A stretch of DNA of 64,000 nt from Escherichia coli phage NG_S8: sequence record LC788711.1, one strand, 5' to 3'. The notes under the pieces were generated by a model. That model saw nothing but the letters and a program-made list of their open reading frames with translations, was not told where the DNA came from and searched no databases. Shown piece after piece: positions 4,128-20,141 of the stretch (the stretch's first letter is position 1; each line of letters begins with the position of its first letter). The translations under genes and the position numbers were made by a program.

Positions 4128-4706
4128 TTATTCTCCAATTACTAAAACATCATGTTGGGAAGATACACCACACATATAATCTGCACAATGCGTAAAAGCC
4201 AGATCAATGATTTCAAATATATCATCTACATCTAAATCTGTGGCTCGACAATCCGCAATAGCTAAACCTGTACGAATACTGGAAAGTACATCTTCTCCTC
4301 CACAGCCTACACCGGCATATTCAACTTCTAGAATAGAAGCATTAGATTGGAAAATAAAGATTCTTCCTTTGTAGAGCATAATAAATTGTCCCAGATTAGG
4401 TTCAGCATATTTTTCATTTTTCTTTTCGCCAAAATCTTTCTGGTTAAACATATCACGTAATTTAGGTACTATTTCCGTATATAAATATTTATCATCGGAA
4501 ATATCTGCTAAACGTGGTGGTACAGTAAAGCTATGCTCTAGTAATTGTCCCATGTAGAAGGAACTAGTGTATCCGAAGTACAAATCATCAGAGATTTTGA
4601 ATACTTTCGGATTTTTAACCAGCAGTTTCGTATAGCCATTAGAACCCATACGATCACCAGCTAAGTATACTTTATCTTTATATTTAAATGCTACTATGGC
4701 TGTCAT
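4128..4706 (-). CDS. HslV / proteasome beta-subunit-like N-terminal nucleophile hydrolase
   Basis: Begins MTAIVAF (Thr directly after the initiator Met), AGD motif, Lys about 30 residues in, GVGCGG matching the GSGG region of HslV; 192 aa fits the family size. Confidence 0.55.
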   Translation of the reverse strand: MTAIVAFKYKDKVYLAGDRMGSNGYTKLLVKNPKVFKISDDLYFGYTSSFYMGQLLEHSFTVPPRLADISDDKYLYTEIVPKLRDMFNQKDFGEKKNEKYAEPNLGQFIMLYKGRIFIFQSNASILEVEYAGVGCGGEDVLSSIRTGLAIADCRATDLDVDDIFEIIDLAFTHCADYMCGVSSQHDVLVIGE

Positions 4707-4780
4707 TATTAAATCCTTCTGTCAAATTAGAAGTATATTATATTTGAATTTCACTCAGTAAGCAAATGAAATTTAAATAT

Positions 4781-4800
4781 AATAGCCCCGAAGGGCTATT
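4781..4800 (-). terminator. palindromic hairpin terminator/attenuator
   Basis: AATAGCCC-CGAA-GGGCTATT followed on the minus strand by a T-rich tract. Confidence 0.5.
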
Positions 4801-4804
4801 TGAA

Positions 4805-5158
4805 TTAGATTATAATCAAGATTATTAGGGCGTATGTCAGATAATGCAGTAACTGATCAAATCCTAAAGCTATCCAAAACTTAGCATCGCTTATAGCGTA
4901 TTTACAGCGTTGTGCTTTCCAATAATCTATAATAAAGTGTAGAATTAATTCCATAATAGCTAAAGCTATAGACATTCCTGGTGATGTGAATAGGATTAGA
5001 ATTGCAAATGTTAATCCAGCATGTACTAGCGAATGGGTTAATAATGGAAGTTTCCACCCTATTTTATGCGTCTTTCTTAGCATATATGGTGTTTGGAGTG
5101 GATAATCGGCCATAAAATGTTTTAGAAAGAATATGACAAATAATAGTATAATTAACAT
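4805..5158 (-). CDS. small integral membrane protein
   Basis: 117 aa, three or four hydrophobic helices (LIILLFVIFF, GLTFAILILF, ALIILIII). Confidence 0.55.
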   Translation of the reverse strand: MLIILLFVIFFLKHFMADYPLQTPYMLRKTHKIGWKLPLLTHSLVHAGLTFAILILFTSPGMSIALAIMELILHFIIDYWKAQRCKYAISDAKFWIALGFDQLLHYLTYALIILIII

Positions 5159-11597: not shown

Positions 11598-13472
11598 ATG
11601 AATCGCAATGAAGAACTAAAGTATAAAGGAATGCAGTCCTTGATTCGAAACTGCAAAGAAATTATCGAAGGTTCAGCAGATGAAGAGCTGCTGTTTAATA
11701 ATGCCAATAAGCCCTCAGAACGTTTCCCTACACAAAGGGATATGCTTGCAGGGGAATTGAGTAAATATCTGATTCTGGAAGAAATGCCAATCCAGATTCG
11801 AAATGCTCACATGATTGGTGATATTCACTTCCATGATGCTGATTACGCTGCGTTAGGTATGACTAACTGTTGCCTGGTTGCTTTGGAAGATATGTTGAAG
11901 AATGGTATGAAGGTTGGTAATGCTGAAATCAGTACACCAAACTCTATTACTACTGCGGCTGCTATCACAGCTCAGATTATCACTCAGGTTAGTTCACATC
12001 AATATGGGGGTACTTCTGTAGACCGATTAGATGAAGTATTGGCTCCTTATGTTCGTAAGTCTTATGATAAGAATCATGCGTTTGCAAAGCGTTGGACTAA
12101 GGATGAAGCTAAAGCATCTGTAATGGCTACGGAAATGACTGAGAAAGAAGTTTACGATGCCTGTCAGGGCCTGGAGTATGAAATCAATACGATGTTCAAC
12201 TCTAATGGTCAAAGTCCGTTTATTACCTTTGGTTTTGGTCTAGGAACTTCTTTGGAAGCACGTCTTGTACAGAAAGCAATACTAGAAGTACGTATGGATG
12301 GTTTGGGTATCAATAAACGTACAGCTATCTTCCCTAAACTGGTATTTGTTTTGCGTGAGGGCGTAAACATGAAACCTGGTGATGTTAACTATGATATCAA
12401 GAAGTTAGCTATGAAATGTACTGCTGAACGTATGTATCCTGACTACATCAGTTATGATAAGGTTGTAGAAGTTACGGGGGACTACAAAGTCTCTATGGGC
12501 TGTCGTTCGTTCCTGGCTGCTGCGGAAGATGGTGAAACTTCTGGTCGTAACAACTTAGGCGTTGTTTCCGTAAACCTTCCTCGAATCGCTATCGAAGCGG
12601 AAGGAAATATTGATCTATTCTTCGATCTGCTTGAGCTGCGTGTGGATACCGCGTTAAAAGCATTGGAGTGGAGGGTTGATCGCTTAAAATACATTCAAGC
12701 TAAAGCTGCGCCCATCCTCTATATGTCAGGAGCCTTTGGATTACGTCTGGGGCCAGATGAATATGTATTTGATCATTTCTACAAGCGTGCTTCTGTATCT
12801 CTAGGGTATATTGGTTGCCACGAAATGTTGCAGCTCATGTTTGGTAAAGATGTAGATACAATGTCTGAGTCTTGTATCAAGTTCGTTCAACGTGTGCTAC
12901 AATACATGCGTGATCGTGCTGATCAGAAGAAGGAAGAGACTCAATTAGGGTATAGTCTGTATGCTACACCATCTGAATCTCTATGTGACCGCTTCTGTCG
13001 CCTAGACCGTGAGTATTTCCCAGAGCATGAAGATATTCTGGCTAAAGGATATTACACTAATTCCCATCACCTTGATGTAGAACGTAAGGTTGCTCCAAAT
13101 GTGAAGTTTGATTATGAGTCTAACTTTACTCCTATTGCTTCTGGTGGGTGCATTTCCTATGTGGAATTACCGGATATGAAACGATTCCCTGATGCACTGG
13201 AATGGGTTATTAACTATGCTGCAAGTAAAGTTCATTACTTCGGTATTAATACTCCAGTAGACTCTTGTGGGGAATGTGGGTTCTTGGGTGAAACTATAGC
13301 TTCTGAGGATGGTTTCAAATGCCCAATTTGTGGCAATCATGATCCTGAGACTCTTGAGGTAACTCGTCGAGTTTGTGGATATCTTGGAAATCCAGGTGCT
13401 CGTCCGTTTAACCCAGGTAAACAACATGAGGTTATGGGTCGAGTGAAACATCAAGACATTCGCGCTAAATAA
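11598..13472 (+). CDS. nrdD: anaerobic ribonucleoside-triphosphate reductase (class III)
   Basis: C-terminal glycyl-radical motif RVCGYLG and Zn ribbon CGECGF...CPICG, 624 aa. Confidence 0.95.
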   Translation: MNRNEELKYKGMQSLIRNCKEIIEGSADEELLFNNANKPSERFPTQRDMLAGELSKYLILEEMPIQIRNAHMIGDIHFHDADYAALGMTNCCLVALEDMLKNGMKVGNAEISTPNSITTAAAITAQIITQVSSHQYGGTSVDRLDEVLAPYVRKSYDKNHAFAKRWTKDEAKASVMATEMTEKEVYDACQGLEYEINTMFNSNGQSPFITFGFGLGTSLEARLVQKAILEVRMDGLGINKRTAIFPKLVFVLREGVNMKPGDVNYDIKKLAMKCTAERMYPDYISYDKVVEVTGDYKVSMGCRSFLAAAEDGETSGRNNLGVVSVNLPRIAIEAEGNIDLFFDLLELRVDTALKALEWRVDRLKYIQAKAAPILYMSGAFGLRLGPDEYVFDHFYKRASVSLGYIGCHEMLQLMFGKDVDTMSESCIKFVQRVLQYMRDRADQKKEETQLGYSLYATPSESLCDRFCRLDREYFPEHEDILAKGYYTNSHHLDVERKVAPNVKFDYESNFTPIASGGCISYVELPDMKRFPDALEWVINYAASKVHYFGINTPVDSCGECGFLGETIASEDGFKCPICGNHDPETLEVTRRVCGYLGNPGARPFNPGKQHEVMGRVKHQDIRAK

Positions 13473-13478
13473 TGAATC

Positions 13479-13512
13479 AGCCAGGTTGCTAGTCGACCTG
13501 GCTTTTATTTTA
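13479..13512 (+). terminator. putative intrinsic terminator after nrdD
   Basis: Short GC hairpin (CAGGT...ACCTG) followed by a T-rich tract. Confidence 0.4.
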
Positions 13513-13513
13513 T

Positions 13514-13542
13514 TTGCTTTCGAGCTAAAACTTATGTATAAT
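13514..13542 (+). promoter_or_regulatory. early sigma70 promoter with conserved leader
   Basis: TTGCTT-17 bp-TATAAT followed by TGATTTATAAATTTGAGAGGAGAAAGCT-ATG. Confidence 0.65.
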
Positions 13543-13570
13543 TGATTTATAAATTTGAGAGGAGAAAGCT

Positions 13571-13852
13571 ATGAGCGAATTGCTTCCGAAAGTAGATGTT
13601 TCCCATCTTGGAGAGCCTAGTGAAGAACGTAAGGCTCTAGATTGGTTGGGCGGATTTGATTATCGTCGTGTTGTTGCAACATGGAATGATAAGAAAGTTA
13701 AGAAGTTTCGGGTACATTATGTAGGTAAAGACAAGTGGCTCTGGATTGATTATGAAGAATCGAAGGGGTCTACTAAGGCTGTGAAAATTTATCGTATGTA
13801 TGGGTATTATTATGCTCACTGTGATAAGAATGAATTTACAGTACAGAACTAA
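13571..13852 (+). CDS. hypothetical protein
   Basis: 93 aa ORF directly downstream of promoter and leader. Confidence 0.55.
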   Translation: MSELLPKVDVSHLGEPSEERKALDWLGGFDYRRVVATWNDKKVKKFRVHYVGKDKWLWIDYEESKGSTKAVKIYRMYGYYYAHCDKNEFTVQN

Positions 13853-13861
13853 GGAATAAGA

Positions 13862-14065
13862 ATGAAAAACGTAAAACATCTTAAATATCGCTTAATTTAC
13901 AACGGACGTATGGAAACAGAAGATCTAGCTCAGCTAGCGATCAATTCAGATGAAGTTACAGTTCGTGCTTTGTCCATCGAGAAGCTGCGTGCTTCTTATG
14001 AAAATCGTATTATGGAATTGGAGGAAAAACTTTATGGACTTCTTGAATCAGAATCTAAAAAGTAA
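13862..14065 (+). CDS. hypothetical protein
   Basis: 67 aa ORF; AGGAAT 5 nt upstream of the ATG. Confidence 0.45.
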   Translation: MKNVKHLKYRLIYNGRMETEDLAQLAINSDEVTVRALSIEKLRASYENRIMELEEKLYGLLESESKK

Positions 14066-14228
14066 TTTAGAAAATATGCTTATGGAGCAGTGGAATGCTG
14101 GGTATAATGCTGGAGTAGCTACCTGTATTGCTGGTTTGGATATGCTTATTAAGCAAGAGAAGGTTCGCCCAGAAGAAGCAATTCTGCTCCAAAATATCAT
14201 CGAAGGATTCAAGCAAGGAATCATATAA
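14034..14228 (+). CDS. hypothetical protein (start uncertain; the track begins this frame at 13950)
   Basis: ATG at 14034 (MDFLNQ...) gives a 64 aa product ending just before the Sir2-like gene; overlaps the previous ORF in another frame. Confidence 0.35.
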   Translation: MDFLNQNLKSNLENMLMEQWNAGYNAGVATCIAGLDMLIKQEKVRPEEAILLQNIIEGFKQGII

Positions 14229-15079
14229 TGCGTAGACTAATCGTTGTTAGTGGTGCAGGTTTGAGTGTAGATAGTGGTGTTCGTGCTTTCCGTACTGATA
14301 CTGCTAGTGGGAAATCCTTGTGGGATGAGTACGATCTAGAGGAAGTATGTAGCTTGCCTAACTTTGAAGCTGGCTTCCGTCGCTTCTGTGGTGAAGATGA
14401 TCCTAACTACTTCAGTGCTCGTTTCCCTGGCATTGATAAAGATGGTAACGATCTGTATCTCAAGACTCATGAGTTCTACAACATGCGTCGTCAGGAATTA
14501 CAGACTGTTGAGCCTAACATTGCCCATCTGCGAATTGCAGAATGGTTCCAGCGTTATGGTGCGGATAGCGTGAAGAACTTCACTACTAACGTTGATGACC
14601 TTCTGGAACGTGCTGGTATCCCTCGTGATGAAATCATTCACGCTCACGGGTACTTGAAAGAGGTGATCTATCGTCAGGGTCGCAACCAAATCATCGAAGA
14701 TGTTGGGTATACTGCGATTGCCCCTGAGGATTACGAATGGGTAAAACCAAACGTAACATTCTTTGGTGAGACGGCTCCGTGGTATATGGGTCAGATTAAC
14801 CTGTTTGATACACTTACTAGCAATGATATGGTTATTGTAGTAGGTTGTAGCAACCAAGTAATCGACTTCAACTGGGAGCTATTTCCTGCTGTATGTCGTG
14901 GAACTAAGATGATGGTTGTTAACCCACAAGTTCGTTATGACGAACAGCTTGAGTATGAGAAACGTGGTGTTACTGTATGGCGTGCTGGAGCTGCCGAAGT
15001 TTTTGGTAATAAACACTTTATTGATCAAGTTGAAGCTTTTATGGAGGGAAATATTTATGTCCCAGAAAAGCATGTGTGA
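14228..15079 (+). CDS. Sir2 (sirtuin)-like NAD-binding protein
   Basis: VVSGAGLSVDSGVRAFR (GAGIS..SGIP.FR), TTNVDDLLERAG (TQNIDGLHERAG), HAHG (catalytic His), VVGCS (VVGTS); no CxxC...CxxC zinc ribbon. Confidence 0.8.
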   Translation: MRRLIVVSGAGLSVDSGVRAFRTDTASGKSLWDEYDLEEVCSLPNFEAGFRRFCGEDDPNYFSARFPGIDKDGNDLYLKTHEFYNMRRQELQTVEPNIAHLRIAEWFQRYGADSVKNFTTNVDDLLERAGIPRDEIIHAHGYLKEVIYRQGRNQIIEDVGYTAIAPEDYEWVKPNVTFFGETAPWYMGQINLFDTLTSNDMVIVVGCSNQVIDFNWELFPAVCRGTKMMVVNPQVRYDEQLEYEKRGVTVWRAGAAEVFGNKHFIDQVEAFMEGNIYVPEKHV

Positions 15080-15239
15080 TCTTTTAGTATGGCCAGACGG
15101 TAGTTGGTGCTACCGTTTCGAATTTGCTACTGATGACTTCTCATGGAAGAGTGATGATTTCTGCGTTATCTATGAGGATACAGCAGAATGGAAAGAGTTC
15201 CTTATTAAGGAGGGAGAATATGGTGAAGAAGATTTTTAA
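15055..15239 (+). CDS. small hypothetical protein
   Basis: ATG at 15055 with GGAGGG 8 nt upstream; 61 aa; overlaps the Sir2-like stop. Confidence 0.4.
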
Positions 15240-15405
15240 GGGTATCTGGAAAGGTCTAGTATGGTTTGTCAACCTAATCGGTATGATTACCATTTATTCT
15301 CTGTTCCTATCTGTTATGTGGGGTAAAGGTGAATTGAAGGTTCCAGTTCCTTTTACTGATGAAGTTAAAGTCTGGACGTGGGATGCTACTGGTGGAAATA
15401 AGTAA
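15220..15405 (+). CDS. small membrane protein
   Basis: ATG at 15220 after AGGAGGGAGA; 61 aa with one hydrophobic helix (GLVWFVNLIGMITIYSLFLSVMW). Confidence 0.45.
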   Translation: MVKKIFKGIWKGLVWFVNLIGMITIYSLFLSVMWGKGELKVPVPFTDEVKVWTWDATGGNK

Positions 15406-15899
15406 TACTCCTGTGATTTTCCTGGATATTGATGGGGTGCTCAATTCGAGCATCTCTCACCATCATGCTCCAGATAGTGAGAAGCTATTCTTTGGGGGTG
15501 ATTGGGTTTACAAGCCATTACTCCAGGCTTTTCAGAACTTTCTTGAGCCATCCCCAATAATGATTGTTGGGGTATCTTCATGGTTTTCTGTACGAAATGA
15601 AATGGAGAACGTTCAGATTATGACCGGACTCGGTTTGATCGATCGTTTTCTTGGTACAACAGATTTTACTGGAGGTGGTTTATCTCGGGGGTAATTCTGT
15701 TTTACGTTTTGTCGAAAAATATAAGCTCAAGCATTGGTGTGTCCTAGATGATGCTGGTGCTATGATGTATCAATTTCCTACTGTTATTGTAAACGGCAGG
15801 ACTGGAATAAACCTTCAAGATTTAAACGCTATCAGCTATATGCTGGAGTTTAGTCCAGATCTTGAAATGTGTAAGGCTCTTCAGAAACTTAAGGTATAA
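15359..15899 (+). pseudogene. HAD-superfamily phosphatase-like gene split by a frameshift at a G5 run (15687-15691)
   Basis: HAD motif I FLDIDGVLNS in frame A (15359-15694), motif-III-like VLDDAG in frame B (15651-15899); removing one G from GGGGG joins the frames into one ORF of about 180 aa. Confidence 0.5.
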
Positions 15900-15901
15900 G
15901 C

Positions 15902-16330
15902 ATGTTCAATAATATTTTCATGAAAGAGGTAAATCCTATGCTTCTCAACTTCTGGCGCTCTCTCCCTAATGGTATGTATAATGAAACCATCAATCTCCTT
16001 AAGATTTGGTGTGAGAATAACGATATCTTCCTGTCTTTTAAAGGCCCGCTAGAGGAAGCTCCGTGTATTGGAGTTAGTGTGGATTTAGGCGAGGGAGTAG
16101 AAGAGATTGTAGACTGGAAAGAACTTGATGAAATGGGTCTGGTTTTTGCCTTGAACCATAAGCTGTTTATGCCTGCAAATCACCGTCTTATTGTAAATTA
16201 TCGCACTGGTGAAGCTCCTGCTTTCCAGGTAAATGAACGTGAGGGCTGGTCATACTCGCCCGGGGAAGTAAATGAGGGGATTCAGAAACTTCGTCGTTTC
16301 GGGTATATGATCCCAGGTTTAACTGCTTAA
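15902..16330 (+). CDS. hypothetical protein, paralog A of a tandem pair
   Basis: 142 aa; C-terminal region aligns to the next ORF (W.EL..MGL..ALN...F.P......TGE.P...V.....W.Y...........L.R.G...PGL). Confidence 0.6.
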   Translation: MFNNIFMKEVNPMLLNFWRSLPNGMYNETINLLKIWCENNDIFLSFKGPLEEAPCIGVSVDLGEGVEEIVDWKELDEMGLVFALNHKLFMPANHRLIVNYRTGEAPAFQVNEREGWSYSPGEVNEGIQKLRRFGYMIPGLTA

Positions 16331-16339
16331 GGAGGCAGA

Positions 16340-16735
16340 ATGGAACAAGTATTTTGGCGTCAGATAGATCCTAGTTTGGTAGAGCGTGCTGAGGGGCTCC
16401 TTGCACGTTGGTTGGGGGTTGACAAGGTTAGTGTAACATTTCCGTTTACTTCTGTAACAGACCCTAGTGTAGGAGTCTTTGTGGATGAAGATGAAGATGA
16501 TGGTTGGGAAGCTGACTGGAATGAATTGTCCAGCATGGGCTTGATTGTTGCCCTCAACTTCTCTATATTCCATCCACGTGGCTTAGCCATTACACGTGAC
16601 CCCGAAACTGGTGAATCCCCTTATCTTTTGCAAGTAGAAGATGATATTTGGGAGTACACCGAAGATATTCTCGAAGAAGCTAAAGGTCACTTAAATCGCA
16701 TTGGGATCTATGTCCCAGGCCTAAATGATGATTGA
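16340..16735 (+). CDS. hypothetical protein, paralog B of a tandem pair
   Basis: 131 aa; shares the motif skeleton of the preceding ORF; GGAGGCAGA RBS before the ATG. Confidence 0.6.
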   Translation: MEQVFWRQIDPSLVERAEGLLARWLGVDKVSVTFPFTSVTDPSVGVFVDEDEDDGWEADWNELSSMGLIVALNFSIFHPRGLAITRDPETGESPYLLQVEDDIWEYTEDILEEAKGHLNRIGIYVPGLNDD

Positions 16736-16759
16736 TTTTCATTAGCCCAATCCTGATTA

Positions 16760-16786
16760 CCGAGTCATTTTGGCTCGGTTTTCTCT
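16760..16786 (+). terminator. intrinsic terminator
   Basis: Hairpin CCGAGTC-ATTTT-GGCTCGG followed by TTTTCTCT. Confidence 0.6.
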
Positions 16787-16826
16787 GTGCTCAAAGACAC
16801 TGATAGCACCTTCGGAAAAATTTTAC

Positions 16827-16855
16827 TTGCAGGATGCTCAAAATCTTGATATAAT
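16827..16855 (+). promoter_or_regulatory. early sigma70 promoter with conserved leader, about 500 nt upstream of the next start codon
   Basis: TTGCAG-17 bp-TATAAT then ATTTATATTGAATTGAGAGACATTAG, resembling the other early leaders. Confidence 0.55.
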
Positions 16856-17351
16856 ATTTATATTGAATTGAGAGACATTAGTAAAAATTGATTTTGCTAA
16901 TTTTTCTTGTTTACAATCCGCAATACGGAACAGTTAGGCTGCCCCATTAAGGGTTGTTTTAACTATTACTAGTGTTTATACTGCATTAGTTAATTATCAA
17001 TTAAGTGATCTGCGTACCCTGAATTCGGAAAGGTAAATCCAAACCGTGCATATTTAGCTCGTTATATAGGCAGAGCTTTATATGGGGGTGCGAACGAAAA
17101 GAGCAGCGAATGGTGACACGTCCAGTAGCCACCTACCAATAGGATAGTGAGGGCAATCAGAATCGGCTTAGCGGCCAATGACCTAGGTTCTGATCTGGAT
17201 AAGAGTTAAGAGAGCGCAGCACTGAGGTATGATAACTTATTCATACTGCTTGATGGTGATTAATGTTTGTGTAAATGGTAGTAATAGTTGTTCTATTCTT
17301 TTGAATAGTCCTAAAGAAAGATATCCGAATAACCAACATAGGAGTATTGTT

Positions 17352-20141
17352 GTGTTCTCAATCCTACAAGGTCACGCAGGATTTTCCAGAGATAAAGCCA
17401 CTGGCATCTGGAAAGAGATCAAAGTGGAAGATTACACCTTTGCAAAGCGATTCTCTAAAGAGCATCCAGAAGGTAAACCAGCTTCCATGCCCTTCAAATT
17501 TGATGTACTTGAAGAACTTGACCCGCAAAACCTTGCTGAAATGTTACCTATCATGCGTCGTCTTACCAAAGACCCGCATATTGTAGCTATTCGGGGTAAG
17601 TGTCTAGCTCCAAAAGATAATGTGCGTCGTACCAGAGGAAACTTTAACGTATCCAATCCTAGTCATATTATTGCTATGGACGTGGATGGTATTGTAGATA
17701 CTGGTGGCTATGACAAGTTTAATCTTGTTGGCATGGCACGTCATATTATTAAGATGTTGAATAGTATTAGTGAGGATATGTTTCCTCTTGATGCAGGGTT
17801 TATTGCCCATGCATCGTCTTCGGCTGGATTAAAACCAGGTATCCGAATGCACTTAATGCTAGAATCTAATGTCAAGGTAACGCAGGGACAGTTAAAGTTC
17901 TTATTTACATCTATCAATGATAGTAGTAAGCAAAAGTACGGCTTTGATATTGCTGACTTAGCTTATTATTCTTCTGTTCAGCTTCACTATTTCGCAGATC
18001 CCTTATTTGATGATGGTATAGTCGATCCGTTTAAAGCGGAGAATAAACCACGTCTTGTGTATGTTAAGGGTTCGAAGGTGAATCTACCTAATAACCTAGT
18101 TGACTTTGAAACAACTAGAGGTGAGTTTAAAGAAGAATTCTACTCCTTACTTGACCAAATTAAAGGCAAGAAGGCTGCATCTGATAAAGTGGAAGAAACC
18201 ATCAGCGAACTAGAAGAAGCTGAGGATGGGGTGTACCTGCGTATTATTCCAAAACTTTACCACAGAGCGTTAGAAGATGGTGTTGACTTTACATGGTTAG
18301 AACGTGAGATTAAACCAGCTTTATCTGAATATATTGCAACTAAAGATAATAGTCGTAATATTCAAGATTACTTTAATAACGGTCGTAAGCAGGCTCTCAA
18401 AGCCTTTGTAAATAACTCCAAACGTGAGATTCCACCAAACTTAAAAGGTGTACCATTAAAACGTCTAGACACAGATTCTCCACCAGAAGTTCCATACCTG
18501 AAAATTAACATTGTACCACCAAAAGGACATTTAACATTTGTTAAGGCAAGTCTTGGTACGGGTAAAACTACAGCAGTAACTAAGTGGCTAGATGCAGGTG
18601 TTCTTCCAGGAAACTTTATTGCAATCACAAATACTAGGGCACTTGTATCTTCTAACGCGAAGAAATTCGGTGCTGGTCAGTATGATAAGTCAGTTGATAT
18701 GCTGAACTTCAAACGTGGTGCCATTGATCGTATGTCTTCAACTATTCACTCTATCCATAAGTTCAAGAGCTTTGTGGGTCAGATTGATACGATCTTTATT
18801 GATGAATGTGACGCAGTAATGAATGATCTGTTATTCGCTCCGGTTGTTAAAAACCGTCGTGAATGTATTCAGGTTCTTCGTGATATCCTTATTACTGCTA
18901 AAACTGTTATCTTATCCGATGGTGATATCAGTGCAGAAACGATTGAAGCCTATGGTTCTTTGATTGATTTTGATAAACCAGTCGCATTTTATAATCACCA
19001 CCGTAAAATGCTGGCGAAAGCTCATGCTTATGAATTCCCTGATGAATCCAGTATTTGGGTTGCACTTCAAACATCTTTAGAGATGGGGGAGAAATCAATC
19101 CTAGTATCTGACTGTGGCCCGGATGAACTGAATGAGAAGGGAATGGCATTACGTCGTAATACTGGTGCGTTAGTTAAAGAAATTCACTCAAACTCTACGT
19201 CTGATGTAGATATCCGACGTATTCTGGATTATACAACTAATGAGCTAATTGATCAACAGATTGATTGTTTATTATGTAGTCCATCTGTAACGAGTGGTGT
19301 TGACTTTAACTATTTTGATAACGTATTCGTAATCACTAGAACCTCAAACCAAGCGCCAAACATGCGTTTTCAAGCAATCAGGCGCGACCGTGGTGCTCAG
19401 AACATTTATTATTTTATTGATAAATCTACGAGTGGATTTTCTGCGGGTTCCGAGCAATATAATATTGACGAAGGTTGGATTGAGTTAGCCCAACAACTGT
19501 ACGCACGTCGTCGTGAGCTGGAATCTAGAAACTATACTAGTACTTTGCGTTATTATCTGCTTGATCAGGGTGCAACTATCGATATTTTCAGCGAAAGCTG
19601 GGGAACTATCGAAGGTGCAGGCAAAGAGTATACAGAAGAGCGAATCAAAGCTATTTTGCACTCAACTCCTGAATATTGTGCACCACGTCATGCAGATGCC
19701 TATGAAGCCAAGTTACTTCTGGTTCGCTATTATCATCTGGATTCTATTAAAGATGTAACAGTGGAACACGTTGAACAGTATATCAAGGATAAACCAAACG
19801 ATAGAGCTGCATTCTTCCATAAGATGCACGACATGTTCTGGGAAGATATTAAAAAGTGTTCAAACGTAACAATCAAACCGTTTATCGAAGCTCTTAAGAA
19901 TAAGAAGAAGGATTTCTTCCTTAAGACAGGTCAGAGCGCTAACCCAAAATATGCTCGTATGTATCTTGGCATGATGGGTATCGGTAAAGATCTGGATACG
20001 GAAAAGATTGTGGACTGGTACAGAACTTACTGTAAGATCGAATGTATGCCGATTCCAGTTAAGTTTATGACAGATGAAGAACGTCAGATGCATGAGGAAG
20101 CTCTTGCTGAATTGGGGGCTAGAAATGACAGCGAAGAATAA
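17352..20141 (+). CDS. SF2-type helicase, replication-origin-binding-protein-like
   Basis: Walker A SLGTGKTT, Walker B IFIDECDAV, helicase motif SPSVTSGVDFN; probable GTG start at 17352 preceded by TAGGAG; the track ORF extends upstream to 17229. Confidence 0.8.
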   Translation: MFSILQGHAGFSRDKATGIWKEIKVEDYTFAKRFSKEHPEGKPASMPFKFDVLEELDPQNLAEMLPIMRRLTKDPHIVAIRGKCLAPKDNVRRTRGNFNVSNPSHIIAMDVDGIVDTGGYDKFNLVGMARHIIKMLNSISEDMFPLDAGFIAHASSSAGLKPGIRMHLMLESNVKVTQGQLKFLFTSINDSSKQKYGFDIADLAYYSSVQLHYFADPLFDDGIVDPFKAENKPRLVYVKGSKVNLPNNLVDFETTRGEFKEEFYSLLDQIKGKKAASDKVEETISELEEAEDGVYLRIIPKLYHRALEDGVDFTWLEREIKPALSEYIATKDNSRNIQDYFNNGRKQALKAFVNNSKREIPPNLKGVPLKRLDTDSPPEVPYLKINIVPPKGHLTFVKASLGTGKTTAVTKWLDAGVLPGNFIAITNTRALVSSNAKKFGAGQYDKSVDMLNFKRGAIDRMSSTIHSIHKFKSFVGQIDTIFIDECDAVMNDLLFAPVVKNRRECIQVLRDILITAKTVILSDGDISAETIEAYGSLIDFDKPVAFYNHHRKMLAKAHAYEFPDESSIWVALQTSLEMGEKSILVSDCGPDELNEKGMALRRNTGALVKEIHSNSTSDVDIRRILDYTTNELIDQQIDCLLCSPSVTSGVDFNYFDNVFVITRTSNQAPNMRFQAIRRDRGAQNIYYFIDKSTSGFSAGSEQYNIDEGWIELAQQLYARRRELESRNYTSTLRYYLLDQGATIDIFSESWGTIEGAGKEYTEERIKAILHSTPEYCAPRHADAYEAKLLLVRYYHLDSIKDVTVEHVEQYIKDKPNDRAAFFHKMHDMFWEDIKKCSNVTIKPFIEALKNKKKDFFLKTGQSANPKYARMYLGMMGIGKDLDTEKIVDWYRTYCKIECMPIPVKFMTDEERQMHEEALAELGARNDSEE

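What the first reader, a model, noticed from the sequence alone, without database searches (positions are those of the whole stretch)
13571..17351. Accessory island between nrdD and the replication genes: Sir2-like, small ORFs, broken HAD phosphatase, paralog pair, long non-coding tail
Conserved core enzymes lie on either side (nrdD upstream, helicase downstream). In between, about 3.8 kb carries no replication or nucleotide-metabolism function I can recognise: three small ORFs, a Sir2-like protein without a zinc ribbon, two tiny overlapping ORFs (one membrane), a HAD-like phosphatase split by a frameshift, two tandem paralogs of unknown family, then about 600 bp of promoter-driven non-coding sequence. 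Phage genomes often put host-takeover or counter-defence genes in this kind of early island. A Sir2 domain next to a phosphatase fits manipulation of NAD or ADP-ribose pools, but that is inference.
Basis: partly seen in the sequence, partly recalled or inferred. Interest (0 to 1): 0.7.

Follow-up and report, generated by a model that had tools for sequence, protein, structure and literature searches.

The report
T5-like early operon plus structured leader
This stretch is the well-conserved but functionally untested "Sir2 / phosphatase" early operon of a T5-like phage, and its long non-coding tail is a conserved, folded RNA leader in front of the phage's replication helicase gene that no RNA database describes.

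Summary
The window is a T5-like Salmonella phage (Epseptimavirus, 99.8% identical to phage SH9). The block is not a strain-specific island. It is the homologue of T5 genes T5.100-T5.107: one promoter-to-terminator unit in the same order in 28 of 28 fetched Tequintavirus/Epseptimavirus loci, with mosaic alleles and one natural deletion.

The Sir2 protein resembles E. coli CobB, keeps all catalytic motifs, and lacks the zinc cysteines across its whole family. Its pairing with a HAD_SAK_2 phosphatase in T5-like phages is already published (Iyer et al. 2022), where NAD-dependent RNA-end repair is predicted. Nobody has tested this.

The HAD frameshift is a private +1 G in a G-run. It is absent from 188 of 188 related records, so it is probably a sequencing error or a very recent lesion.

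The two paralogs are DUF7415 proteins, a phage-only fold with no solved relative.

The new result concerns the 616-bp tail. It holds a terminator, a promoter and a roughly 490-nt leader of the D2 helicase gene. The leader has covariation-supported long-range helices and a CUUAGCGG hairpin conserved across at least five Demerecviridae lineages. Rfam has no match.

The protein part is ordinary. The RNA is a candidate new structured RNA.

The parts
13479..13503 (+). Intrinsic terminator after nrdD
   Evidence: 10-bp GC-rich stem followed by a T run. T5 and AKFV33 annotate a terminator at the same place.
13514..13542 (+). Early promoter of the operon: TTGCTT, 17 nt, TATAAT
   Evidence: Read directly from the sequence. 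It matches the T5 promoter consensus TTGCTT(N17-18)TATAATA quoted in the AKFV33 record, and a promoter is annotated here in T5 and AKFV33. The simple scan did not list it.
13571..13852 (+). ORF of 93 aa, unknown function (phrog_7953). Present or absent among T5-likes; T5 itself has an unrelated 126-aa ORF, T5.100, here.
13862..14065 (+). ORF of 67 aa, unknown function (phrog_5236, T5.101 homologue). 85-100% identical in all 28 loci.
14034..14228 (+). ORF of 64 aa, unknown function (phrog_5827). Alleles range from 33% to 98% identity, and the ORF is absent from L016.
14228..15079 (+). Sir2-family protein of 283 aa. CobB/SIRT5-like, with no zinc cysteines.
   Evidence: PF02146 at 77.7 bits and phrog_2162. 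The alignment to E. coli CobB 1s5p keeps GAGxS, FR, TxNxD, HxHG and the FYNxRR (YxxR) motif, but has no Cys at the zinc sites. The same holds across 29 homologues. The AF2 model has pLDDT 84.7 and its best Foldseek match is CobB at 2e-15.
15057..15239 (+). ORF of 60 aa, unknown function (phrog_5116). Allelic, 53-100% identity.
15220..15405 (+). ORF of 61 aa with one predicted membrane helix (phrog_11166). Present or absent among T5-likes.
   Evidence: The hydrophobic stretch GLVWFVNLIGMITIYSLFLSVMW was read from the translation.
15383..15899 (+). HAD_SAK_2 phosphatase gene (T5.105 homologue), interrupted by a +1 frameshift. The extra G lies in the run 15687-15691 and creates the stop TAA at 15692-15694.
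   Evidence: The repaired protein hits PF18143 at E 4.7e-18. Motif I is FLDIDGV. The single-base insertion is seen relative to SH9 and Stitch. The gene is full-length in 26 of 28 relatives at 88-100% identity (L016 truncated; L013 scored in another frame, about 1 nt offset, not followed up). The extra G is absent from all 188 matching records.
15902..16330 (+). DUF7415 protein, paralog 1 (142 aa, T5.106 homologue)
16340..16735 (+). DUF7415 protein, paralog 2 (131 aa, T5.107 homologue)
   Evidence: PF24187 at E 3e-28. 31% identical to paralog 1, E 5e-20. The pair is present in all T5-likes and in Sugarlandvirus.
16759..16779 (+). Intrinsic terminator that ends the operon
   Evidence: 9-bp stem followed by TTTTCTCT. 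Annotated in Stitch and T5. The loop varies (TTTT or AAAA) while the stem is kept.
16829..16857 (+). Promoter of the D2 helicase transcript: TTGCAG, 17 nt, TGaTATAAT (extended -10)
   Evidence: Read from the sequence. Nearly invariant in 17 aligned tails. Annotated as a promoter in T5 and AKFV33.
16865..17351 (+). Structured 5' leader RNA of the D2 helicase gene, about 490 nt. Hairpin 1 is 16870-16908 and hairpin 2 is 16913-16957. A closing long-range stem (16960-16993 with about 17258-17290) encloses a domain of about 330 nt. Inner helix: 17005-17015 with 17214-17222. Hairpin with the conserved CUUAGCGG: 17157-17193 (motif at 17167-17174). Small 3' hairpin: 17293-17308. A further hairpin over the SD and start codon spans 17335-17356.
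   Evidence: The MFE z-score is -4.5. RNAalifold and pair counting give 22 pairs with compensatory changes, against 2-3 in the slid controls, with 99.9% of cells paired. Many G-U pairs occur on the + strand only. CTTAGCGG occurs once per leader in five lineages. The model of the 5' part hits My1 at E 2e-6 and Roth39 at E 0.03, both at the homologous site. There is no Rfam match.
17352..20141 (+). D2 helicase, also annotated as 'replication origin binding protein' (T5.108 homologue). It lies outside the finding but is the gene served by the leader.
   Evidence: The GTG start with the AGGAG SD at 17340-17344 is conserved. Weak PF02399 hit at 22 bits. The T5 orthologue was characterised as a bipolar helicase and proposed initiator (PMC3632103).

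Best explanation
The region holds two transcription units of a T5-like phage.

**Unit 1 (13514-16779).** This is the conserved early operon equivalent to T5.100-T5.107. One T5-consensus promoter and one terminator bracket nine tightly packed, often overlapping genes.
- Its enzymatic core is a CobB-like sirtuin without zinc cysteines plus a HAD_SAK_2 phosphatase. The two travel together and are lost together.
- The most likely role, which is inferred, is the one predicted by Iyer et al. 2022. The sirtuin would use NAD+ to remove or transfer onto a terminal or 2'-phosphate on cleaved RNA, as KptA/Tpt1 does. The HAD would trim terminal phosphates or the ADP-ribose-phosphate by-product. Together they would heal phage or host tRNA/mRNA cut by host nucleases, which makes the module a dispensable counter-defence.
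- The DUF7415 pair and the five small ORFs are phage-only proteins of unknown role in the same operon.
- The HAD frameshift is a private homopolymer +1 G. It is a sequencing error or a very recent knockout, not a designed feature.

**Unit 2 (16829 onward).** This is a strong promoter followed by a leader of about 490 nt. The leader folds into two 5' hairpins and a closed multi-helix domain of about 330 nt carrying an invariant CUUAGCGG hairpin. It then runs into the D2 helicase gene, whose SD and start codon sit in a conserved hairpin. The most likely role, again inferred, is cis-regulation of translation or stability of the replication-initiator helicase mRNA through binding of a protein or ligand.

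Shown here: identity, boundaries, conservation, motifs and covariation. Inferred: every biochemical activity and the regulatory role.
For: **Identity and synteny.** The region is 99.8% identical to SH9. 553 phage records match, and 206 cover at least 80% of the query. Gene order is the same in Stitch, SH9, T5 and AKFV33 and in 24 IMG/VR loci.

**Operon boundaries.**

**Sir2.**
- Pfam hit and motifs.
- Structural neighbours are CobB, Sir2Af and SIRT5. No defence NADase appears in the top 50, and PADLOC gives no hit.

**Linkage of Sir2 and HAD.**
- They are adjacent in Markadamsvirinae and My1.
- They are rearranged but still neighbours in Pantoea phage AAS21.
- They are deleted together in L016.
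- The HAD is the most conserved protein of the block at 88-100% identity.
- In a T4-like Aeromonas phage, a HAD_SAK_2 homologue sits three genes upstream of RNA ligase rnlA.
- The published prediction of RNA repair names T5-like phage SP15 (PMC9503650 section 3.7.3).

**Frameshift.** It is private to this sequence.

**Leader RNA.**
- The promoter and first roughly 110 nt are nearly invariant, while the adjacent DUF7415 protein is only 64-73% identical.
- 22 compensatory pairs, against 2-3 in the slid controls.
- Three-state covariation in the stem under the CUUAGCGG hairpin.
- Architecture and motifs recur in Sugarlandvirus, My1, AAS21 and Priunavirus.
- No terminator lies between the domain and the start codon.
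Against: **Biochemistry.**
- No biochemical or genetic data exist for any gene of the block. Searches for the T5.10x gene names and for DUF7415 found nothing, and no experimental follow-up of the RNA-repair prediction was found.
- I found no RNA ligase or 2H/CPDase in this block, so a complete repair pathway would need host RtcB or other phage genes.
- The sirtuin's best matches are true protein deacylases, and it keeps the YxxR motif of desuccinylases. That fits a protein substrate equally well.
- Sugarlandvirus keeps Sir2 without the HAD.
- I could not confirm the RNA-ligase neighbourhood claimed for rV5-like phages with Pfam.

**Leader RNA.**
- The structure was predicted on the same alignment that was used to count covariation.
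- The compensatory events come from few independent lineages.
- Cross-genus hits of the hairpin model are marginal (E 0.13-0.32).
- Hairpin 2 overlaps an open frame that keeps a short peptide motif.
- No transcript data were available.
Confidence: 0.5

Rival explanations
1. The Sir2 is an ordinary protein lysine deacylase, a phage copy of host CobB, class III and desuccinylase-like. It would reset acylation of host or phage proteins early in infection. The HAD would be an unrelated nucleotide or sugar-phosphate phosphatase that belongs with the neighbouring nucleotide-metabolism genes.
For: - The best sequence and fold matches are E. coli CobB, Sir2Af and SIRT5.
- The catalytic His and the YxxR motif (FYNxRR) are invariant in the family.
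- The block lies between nrdD and the replication genes.
- In T4-like Aeromonas phage Ah1 the HAD homologue directly follows thymidylate synthase.
Against: - The zinc-binding module that shapes the peptide cleft in deacylase sirtuins has lost all four cysteines across the whole family.
- Sir2 and HAD are linked, rearranged together and lost together, which argues for a joint function.
- The HAD belongs to the HAD_SAK_2 family defined on RNA-repair proteins.
Confidence: 0.22
2. The Sir2 consumes NAD+ or ADP-ribose derivatives and the HAD dephosphorylates the products. The pair would manipulate NAD/ADP-ribose pools or destroy ADP-ribose-derived immune signals, acting as a counter-defence against NAD-based systems.
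For: - A Sir2 fold with intact NAD-binding motifs.
- Loss of the zinc module. I recall, but did not test, that defence NADase SIR2 domains also lack this module.
- Mosaic, dispensable genes in an early operon.
- Iyer et al. note that phages widely carry enzymes against soluble ADP-ribose derivatives.
Against: - No similarity to any PADLOC defence SIR2 model.
- No NADase-type structures among the top 50 fold matches.
- An NAD-depleting enzyme would hurt a phage that itself encodes an NAD-dependent DNA ligase (T5 ligA/ligB).
- The published analysis places this sirtuin clade with RNA repair, not with signal degradation.
Confidence: 0.13
3. The tail is, or contains, a replication origin of the phage. 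Transcription from the strong promoter would make a folded pre-primer RNA, as ColE1 RNA II or the T4 oriF/oriG transcripts do. Alternatively it would open the DNA for the adjacent D2 initiator helicase. The near-invariant first 110 bp would be protein-binding origin DNA.
For: - The tail lies immediately upstream of the gene for the proposed replication initiator (PMC3632103).
- In T5 it lies at 58.9-59.5 kb of 121.75 kb, the middle of the genome. T5 is reported to use internal bidirectional origins (Bourguignon 1976, as cited).
- The first 110 nt have almost no substitutions although neighbouring proteins differ by 27-36%. That is more than a helix needs.
- The RNA is G-rich: GC skew is +0.22 at 17000-17300.
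- The length of 615-622 nt is preserved.
Against: - No iterons, AT-rich unwinding block or DnaA boxes were seen.
- Covariation with G-U pairs points to RNA structure rather than duplex recognition, although an RNA II-like primer would also show that.
- The RNA type (A or B) tracks only weakly with D2 sequence.
- Origin mapping at sequence resolution does not exist for T5, as far as I could find.
Confidence: 0.2
4. The HAD frameshift is biologically real and functional, either as programmed ribosomal frameshifting or as a deliberate split gene.
For: The shift lies in a slippery-looking G run directly before a stop codon.
Against: All 188 related records lack the extra G. 26 of 28 relatives, including genomes 99% identical to this one, give a full-length match.
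Confidence: 0.03

Closest known systems
T5 early genes T5.100-T5.107 with the downstream terminator, promoter and T5.108 (D2) (GenBank AY543070, Wang et al. 2005 annotation)
   Same: Same gene order. The flanks (nrdD and D2) match, and the terminators and promoters sit at the same places. The HAD is 90%, the DUF7415 pair 68-73%, and D2 94% identical.
   Different: The first ORF differs: 93 aa here against the unrelated 126-aa T5.100. This phage carries the other Sir2 allele, 52% identical with a 26-residue insert. T5 has no match to the 61-aa membrane ORF. The HAD carries a +1 G here.
Sirtuin + 'Swiss-army-knife' HAD neighbourhood of phages typified by Escherichia phage SP15, predicted to be NAD-dependent RNA repair (Iyer, Burroughs, Anantharaman, Aravind 2022, PMC9503650)
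   Same: It is the same module. SP15 is a T5-like phage whose HAD and DUF7415 genes match this window. The sirtuin is not paired with a Macro domain.
   Different: That work is computational and covers only the Sir2 and HAD. It does not discuss the DUF7415 pair, the small ORFs or the leader RNA.
E. coli CobB / human SIRT5 (class III sirtuin deacylases)
   Same: Rossmann core, GAGxS, TxNxD, catalytic HG, YxxR and FGE motifs. Best sequence match is E 1.7e-16 and best fold match is E 2e-15 with target TM 0.81.
   Different: No zinc cysteines. The beta-hairpin of the small domain is kept in the model, but without metal ligands. A variable insert of 26 residues follows helix 3. The substrate is unknown.
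KptA/Tpt1 RNA 2'-phosphotransferase
   Same: The proposed chemistry only: NAD+-dependent removal of an RNA 2'-phosphate, giving an ADP-ribose cyclic phosphate.
   Different: An unrelated fold and no sequence similarity. The resemblance is a functional hypothesis, not family membership.
Long structured bacterial and phage leader or primer RNAs (large riboswitch and T-box leaders; ColE1 RNA II; T4 oriF/oriG transcripts)
   Same: A promoter-proximal, several-hundred-nucleotide folded RNA placed in cis before a gene or origin, with conserved helices and loops.
   Different: No sequence or structure match to any Rfam 15 family. The ligand or partner is unknown. The central domain exists in two very divergent versions with the same outline.

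Membership tests
Sir2/sirtuin family (PF02146) | Profile match above the curated threshold | tested here: met
   77.7 bits against a cut-off of 24. phrog_2162 at E 2.5e-107.
Sir2/sirtuin family (PF02146) | NAD-binding motifs GAGxS...FR and TxNxD, and the catalytic His of HG | tested here: met
   SGAGLSVDSG..FR, TTNVDDL and IHAHG align with CobB. They are invariant in 29 homologues.
Sir2/sirtuin family (PF02146) | Four-cysteine zinc-binding module in the small domain | tested here: not met
   No Cys at the CobB zinc positions. No conserved Cys pairs in that region in 29 homologues. The model keeps a beta-hairpin at residues 141-158.
Class III (CobB/SIRT5-like) sirtuins | YxxR motif that binds an acidic acyl group | tested here: met
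   In FYNMRR, residues Y84, R87 and R88 are invariant. Assigning this motif to acidic-acyl recognition rests on established SIRT5/CobB knowledge.
Class III (CobB/SIRT5-like) sirtuins | Lysine deacylase activity | not testable with these tools
   Needs an enzyme assay.
Defence-type SIR2 NADases (ThsA, DSR, SIR2-HerA, etc.) | Similarity to defence SIR2 profiles or structures, and an associated sensor domain or partner | tested here: not met
   No PADLOC hit at E 0.01. The top 50 fold matches are all deacylase sirtuins. The protein has a single domain.
HAD superfamily, HAD_SAK_2 (PF18143) | Profile match above threshold and motif I DxDx(T/V) | tested here: met
FLDIDGV is at residues 13-19 and a DD motif lies in VLDDAG (translation).
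HAD superfamily, HAD_SAK_2 (PF18143) | Intact reading frame in this genome | tested here: not met
   A +1 G at 15687-15691 splits the gene into fragments of 111 and 82 aa.
KptA/Tpt1-type RNA repair pathway | Presence of a ligase, a cyclic phosphodiesterase and a 2'-phosphotransferase acting on RNA | tested here: inconclusive
   No Pfam RNA ligase or 2H domain was found in the nine ORFs of the block. The assignment rests on the published gene-neighbourhood argument.
DUF7415 (PF24187) | Profile match; two repeats per protein | tested here: met
Any Rfam 15 RNA family | Covariance-model match at or near the gathering score | tested here: not met
   The only hits are sub-threshold and sit at the terminators: 21.6 bits against 56.4, and 28.7 bits against 100.
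Structured functional RNA (generic) | Compensatory base changes that keep helices across relatives | tested here: met
   22 pairs with double changes against 2-3 when the partners are slid. 0 of 500 shuffles reach the observed score. Caveats: few lineages, and the structure was predicted on the same alignment.
Replication origin | Iterons, an AT-rich unwinding element, and initiator binding | tested here: inconclusive
   The repeat search found only short two-copy matches. Binding and initiation cannot be tested here.

The most novel reading that the evidence does not exclude
The closed multi-helix domain of about 330 nt in the D2 helicase leader, with its invariant CUUAGCGG hairpin and its two strongly diverged but iso-structural versions, may be a new class of large functional phage RNA. 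It could be the pre-primer or origin RNA that starts T5-type replication. It could instead be a sensor of a ligand or protein that gates synthesis of the replication initiator.
Probability: 0.3. Interest if true: 0.75.

Novelty: new member of a known kind. Interest (0 to 1): 0.45.

Why it matters
The protein part adds little. It is an annotated operon with a published, untested prediction. It does mark a cheap experimental target, because a sirtuin + phosphatase pair that phages can lose may reveal a second NAD-dependent way to repair nuclease-cut RNA.

The RNA part matters more. The replication origin and the control of replication initiation have not, as far as I could find, been defined at sequence level in T5. 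Here a conserved, folded 490-nt RNA sits directly in front of the initiator helicase gene in several genera. It gives a concrete element to delete, probe and map.

It also warns annotators. Several records place hypothetical proteins on this leader, or mislabel the HAD as Sir2 and the DUF7415 proteins as exonuclease or tail tube protein.

Tried and rejected
- **Rfam and tRNA scans.** Rfam scans of the region and of five divergent homologous loci gave only sub-threshold noise at the terminators. The tRNA/tmRNA scan found none.
- **Known RNA classes considered from memory.** I considered a group I intron, RNase P-like RNA or another known ribozyme because of motif resemblances (ACAGAAC..GGCU, AUAGUCC). 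I rejected them: Rfam gives no hit, the motif order is wrong for RNase P, and there are no exons.
- **PADLOC.** No hits for any of the nine proteins.
- **HAD against solved structures.** The sequence search gave only His-tag artefacts.
- **Hairpin model R1.** It hits the right place in Priunavirus and Sugarlandvirus, but only at E 0.13-0.32. This is suggestive, not proof.
- **Initiator/origin specificity cassette.** I tested whether the RNA type (A or B) travels with a distinct D2 allele. The link is weak: D2 differs mainly at residues 1-100 and 350-400.
- **Pfam on rV5-like neighbours.** Scanning the genes next to Sir2 in a Phapecoctavirus recognised nothing relevant, so this did not verify the published RNA-ligase context.
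- **Literature.** Searches for the T5.10x gene names, DUF7415, T5 ncRNA, T5 origin and experimental tests of the sirtuin RNA-repair idea found nothing beyond PMC9503650 and PMC3632103. Bourguignon 1976 could not be read.
- **Repeat search in the tail.** It found no iterons.

Full report
**What the sequence is.** Window 13400-17500 is 99.8% identical to Salmonella phage SH9 and about 99% identical to Stitch and many other Epseptimavirus genomes. 553 phage records match it, and 206 of them cover at least 80% of the query. The annotated records show the same gene order as the window. That order is nrdD, two or three small ORFs, a Sir2-like protein, two small ORFs, a 171-aa protein, two proteins of about 135 aa, a terminator, about 600 bp without genes, and then the 'replication origin binding protein'. 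Phage T5 itself has the same layout as T5.099 (nrdD) through T5.108, with annotated terminators and promoters at the matching places. AKFV33 does too.

**Check of the observation.**
- Three small ORFs (13571-13852, 13862-14065, 14034-14228) each match a PHROG family of unknown function.
- The Sir2 gene (14228-15079) scores 77.7 bits on PF02146.
- Two overlapping small ORFs follow (15057-15239, 15220-15405). The second has one hydrophobic helix.
- The next gene is a HAD_SAK_2 phosphatase (PF18143, E 4.7e-18 on the intact SH9 version).
- The two tandem genes (15902-16330, 16340-16735) are 31% identical (E 5e-20). Both are DUF7415 proteins with two repeats each.
- The tail (16736-17351) has no tRNA and no Rfam match.

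**The operon.** A terminator follows nrdD (13479-13503). A T5-consensus promoter, TTGCTT-17-TATAAT, lies at 13514-13542. A second terminator follows the last DUF7415 gene (16759-16779). The nine genes are packed with short overlaps, so they form one early transcription unit.

**The frameshift.** Alignment with SH9 and Stitch shows a single extra G in the run at 15687-15691, which creates a TAA stop.
- The gene is full-length in 26 of 28 related loci, at 88-100% protein identity. L016 is truncated and L013 scored in a different frame (about 1 nt offset, not followed up).
- A 96-nt query around the site matched 188 records. Every listed best match (99.0%) spanned 95 bases, and none of the 188 reached the >=99% band that a full 96/96 match would give.

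The lesion is therefore private to this sequence and sits in a homopolymer. A sequencing or assembly error is the simplest reading, and a very recent inactivation is the alternative.

**How variable the block is.** Across 28 T5-like loci the order is fixed but the alleles are mosaic.

| Gene | Pattern across loci |
|---|---|
| 93-aa ORF | Present, or replaced |
| 64-aa ORF | 33-98% identity (absent from L016) |
| Sir2 | Two alleles, 51-52% versus 98-100% |
| 60-aa and 61-aa ORFs | Vary, or are missing |
| HAD | 88-100% |
| DUF7415 pair | 68-76%, or 98-100% in the Epseptimavirus-type loci |

One genome, L016, has a deletion that fuses the 64-aa ORF to the C-terminal part of the HAD. It removes Sir2, both small ORFs and the catalytic DxD motif. 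The module is therefore dispensable, and Sir2 and HAD were lost together.

At family level the nrdD-to-helicase interval differs between lineages.

| Lineage | Content of the interval |
|---|---|
| My1 | Sir2, HAD_SAK_2 and one DUF7415 |
| Pantoea phage AAS21 | HAD and Sir2, in the other order |
| Sugarlandvirus | Sir2 and two DUF7415, no HAD |
| Priunavirus | Three unrelated small ORFs |
| Vibrio phage Athena | Almost nothing |

'Accessory' is therefore fair for the family but not within T5-like phages.

**The Sir2 protein.** Its closest solved relative by sequence is E. coli CobB (1s5p, E 1.7e-16).
- The alignment keeps GAGxS, FR, TxNxD, the catalytic HG and the FYNxRR (YxxR) motif. The zinc cysteines of CobB are replaced.
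- In an alignment of 29 phage homologues these motifs are invariant, and no cysteine pair is conserved in the small-domain region. Zinc loss is thus a family trait.
- The AF2 model (pLDDT 84.7) matches CobB, Sir2Af and SIRT5 best. No defence NADase appears in the top 50, and PADLOC finds nothing.
- The family occurs in 980 phage records, including rV5-like and Phapecoctavirus myoviruses, KVP40-like phages and jumbo phages.
- This window's allele is closer to Sugarlandvirus (about 64%) and to those myoviruses (58-60%) than to T5 (51%). I read that as suggesting gene exchange.

**What is already published.** Iyer, Burroughs, Anantharaman and Aravind (2022, PMC9503650, section 3.7.3) describe a distinct clade of phage sirtuins in three conserved neighbourhoods. 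[quoted passage not shown] They propose that the sirtuin acts like KptA, removing RNA 2'-phosphates with NAD+. SP15 is a T5-like phage whose HAD and DUF7415 genes match this window. The core idea of the finding is therefore known and carries a different proposed function. I found no experimental test of it.

There is some independent support. In T4-like Aeromonas phage Ah1, a HAD_SAK_2 homologue lies three genes upstream of RNA ligase rnlA. It also directly follows thymidylate synthase, which fits a nucleotide role equally well.

**The tail.** I aligned 17 distinct tails of normal length.
- The terminator, the promoter (TTGCAG-17-TGaTATAAT, 16829-16857) and the first 110 nt or so of the transcript are almost invariant. 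The neighbouring DUF7415 protein, by contrast, is only 64-73% identical.
- Tail length is preserved at 615-622 nt.
- The central 300 nt or so exist in two very different versions: type A (window and T5) and type B (five loci). They have the same length and share short islands: GAUCUGCGU, GGCUUAGCGGCC, AGCGCAGC and the two arms of a closing stem.
- The window's leader folds much better than shuffles (z -4.5).

RNAalifold predicts two 5' hairpins, a long closing stem around a multi-helix domain, a hairpin presenting GGCUUAGCGGCC, a small 3' hairpin, and a hairpin over the SD and start codon. Pair counting gives the following.
- 99.9% of cells are paired.
- 22 pairs have changes on both sides, against 2-3 when the partners are slid by 1-3 columns.
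- 0 of 500 shuffles reach the observed covariation score.

Examples of compensatory change are CUGCG/CGCAG in the window against CUGUG/CACAG in T5, and three different states of the stem under the conserved hairpin. Many pairs are G-U on the + strand, which would be C-A on the other strand. The structure therefore belongs to the + strand, in line with the promoter direction.

There are caveats. The structure was predicted on the same alignment, and the events come from about three lineages.

**Wider conservation of the leader.**
- A non-coding gap of about 590-715 nt upstream of the helicase gene exists in Sugarlandvirus, My1 and Priunavirus.
- The octamer CTTAGCGG occurs exactly once in 32 of the 33 loci that hold such a leader (T5's 17-kb locus also has two minus-strand copies outside it), always on the + strand. 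It lies 168-185 nt (Markadamsvirinae, Sugarlandvirus, My1, AAS21) or 281-285 nt (Priunavirus) before the start codon.
- It is absent from loci that lack the leader and from the Vibrio phage. In the 64-kb window it occurs three times, with about one expected by chance.
- In each lineage it sits in a hairpin with a different, complementary stem. My1 changes GGCU..GGCC to GACU..GGUC.
- A covariance model of the first 95 nt, built from T5-like sequences only, finds the homologous site in My1 (E 2e-6), Roth39 (E 0.03) and AAS21 (E 0.34). In AAS21 the small CAG/CUG stem becomes CGG/CCG.
- Single-sequence folds of My1 and PSTCR5 also show a long closing stem around about 300 nt.
- No Rfam family matches any version.
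- No terminator separates the domain from the start codon, so the RNA is a 5' leader.

**The downstream gene.** It is the orthologue of T5 D2 (AY692264 51489-54275, same GTG start). That protein was characterised as a bipolar SF2 helicase and proposed as a replication initiator (PMC3632103). Its 'origin binding' label rests on a weak PF02399 match of 22 bits.

**What the leader might do.**
- I favour cis-regulation of D2 expression. The SD and start codon lie in a conserved hairpin, and the domain is directly upstream.
- A role as an origin or pre-primer RNA is a serious rival. The element lies mid-genome in T5 and next to the initiator gene, and its first 110 nt are more conserved than structure alone requires. 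Against this, no iterons were found, and the RNA type tracks only weakly with D2 sequence.
- A short open frame over hairpin 2 keeps the peptide Y(G/R)TVR(L/P)(P/L)H in five lineages, with about equal numbers of synonymous and non-synonymous changes. A uORF cannot be excluded.

**Verdict.** The frameshift is most likely an artefact. The part worth following up is the structured D2 leader, which appears to be an undescribed RNA family.

Noticed in passing
L017 about 4730-4830, L025 and L028 about 4565-4660 (the equivalent site in the window is about 16908): A 97-bp insertion flanked by a duplicated TTTTTCTT sits between leader hairpins 1 and 2. It occurs in three phages that carry either type A or type B leaders, and it is absent from the window. 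It looks like a small mobile insertion.
   Followed up: partly
L004/L015 (AKFV33), L009, L026, L016; Salmonella phage S132 (H69): Insertions of 0.5-0.6 kb, annotated as a homing endonuclease in AKFV33 and S132, lie between the operon terminator and the D2 promoter. They replace the first roughly 115 nt of the tail but leave the promoter and leader intact.
   Followed up: partly
L016 3171-3560: A natural deletion fuses the 64-aa ORF to the C-terminal two thirds of the HAD. It removes Sir2, both small ORFs and the HAD catalytic motif in one step.
   Followed up: yes
window 15383-15899, 15902-16735, 17352-20141 and the public records: Annotation errors have spread through public records. The HAD is labelled 'Sir2 (NAD-dependent deacetylase)' through phrog_18062. 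DUF7415 proteins are labelled 'exonuclease' or 'tail tube protein'. D2 is labelled 'U3 small nucleolar RNA-associated protein' or 'DNA primase C'. Hypothetical proteins are called on the leader.
   Followed up: partly
window 16887-16949: An open frame (TTG...TAA, 20 codons) overlaps leader hairpin 2. The same frame is open in T5, Roth39, My1 and AAS21 and keeps Y(G/R)TVR(L/P)(P/L)H, but its flanks, lengths and start codons differ. It may be a uORF or a by-product of RNA conservation.
   Followed up: partly
window 16888-16917: A second promoter-like site, TTGATT-18-TACAAT, lies inside the leader and overlaps hairpin 1. It is invariant in all T5-like tails.
   Followed up: no
L024 (IMGVR_UViG_2974607751): This genome shows a recombination breakpoint. 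From the 93-aa ORF to DUF7415 paralog 1 it is 96-100% identical to the window (apart from a divergent 60-aa ORF). DUF7415 paralog 2 is only 69% identical, and the leader's central domain is type B.
   Followed up: partly
window 14228-15079: This Sir2 allele is closer to those of Sugarlandvirus (about 64%) and of rV5-like and Phapecoctavirus myoviruses (58-60%) than to T5's (51%). It shares a 26-residue insert with them that T5 lacks.
   Followed up: partly
L038 (Aeromonas phage Ah1) 3968-6296: In this T4-like phage a HAD_SAK_2 homologue lies directly after thymidylate synthase and three genes upstream of RNA ligase rnlA.
   Followed up: partly
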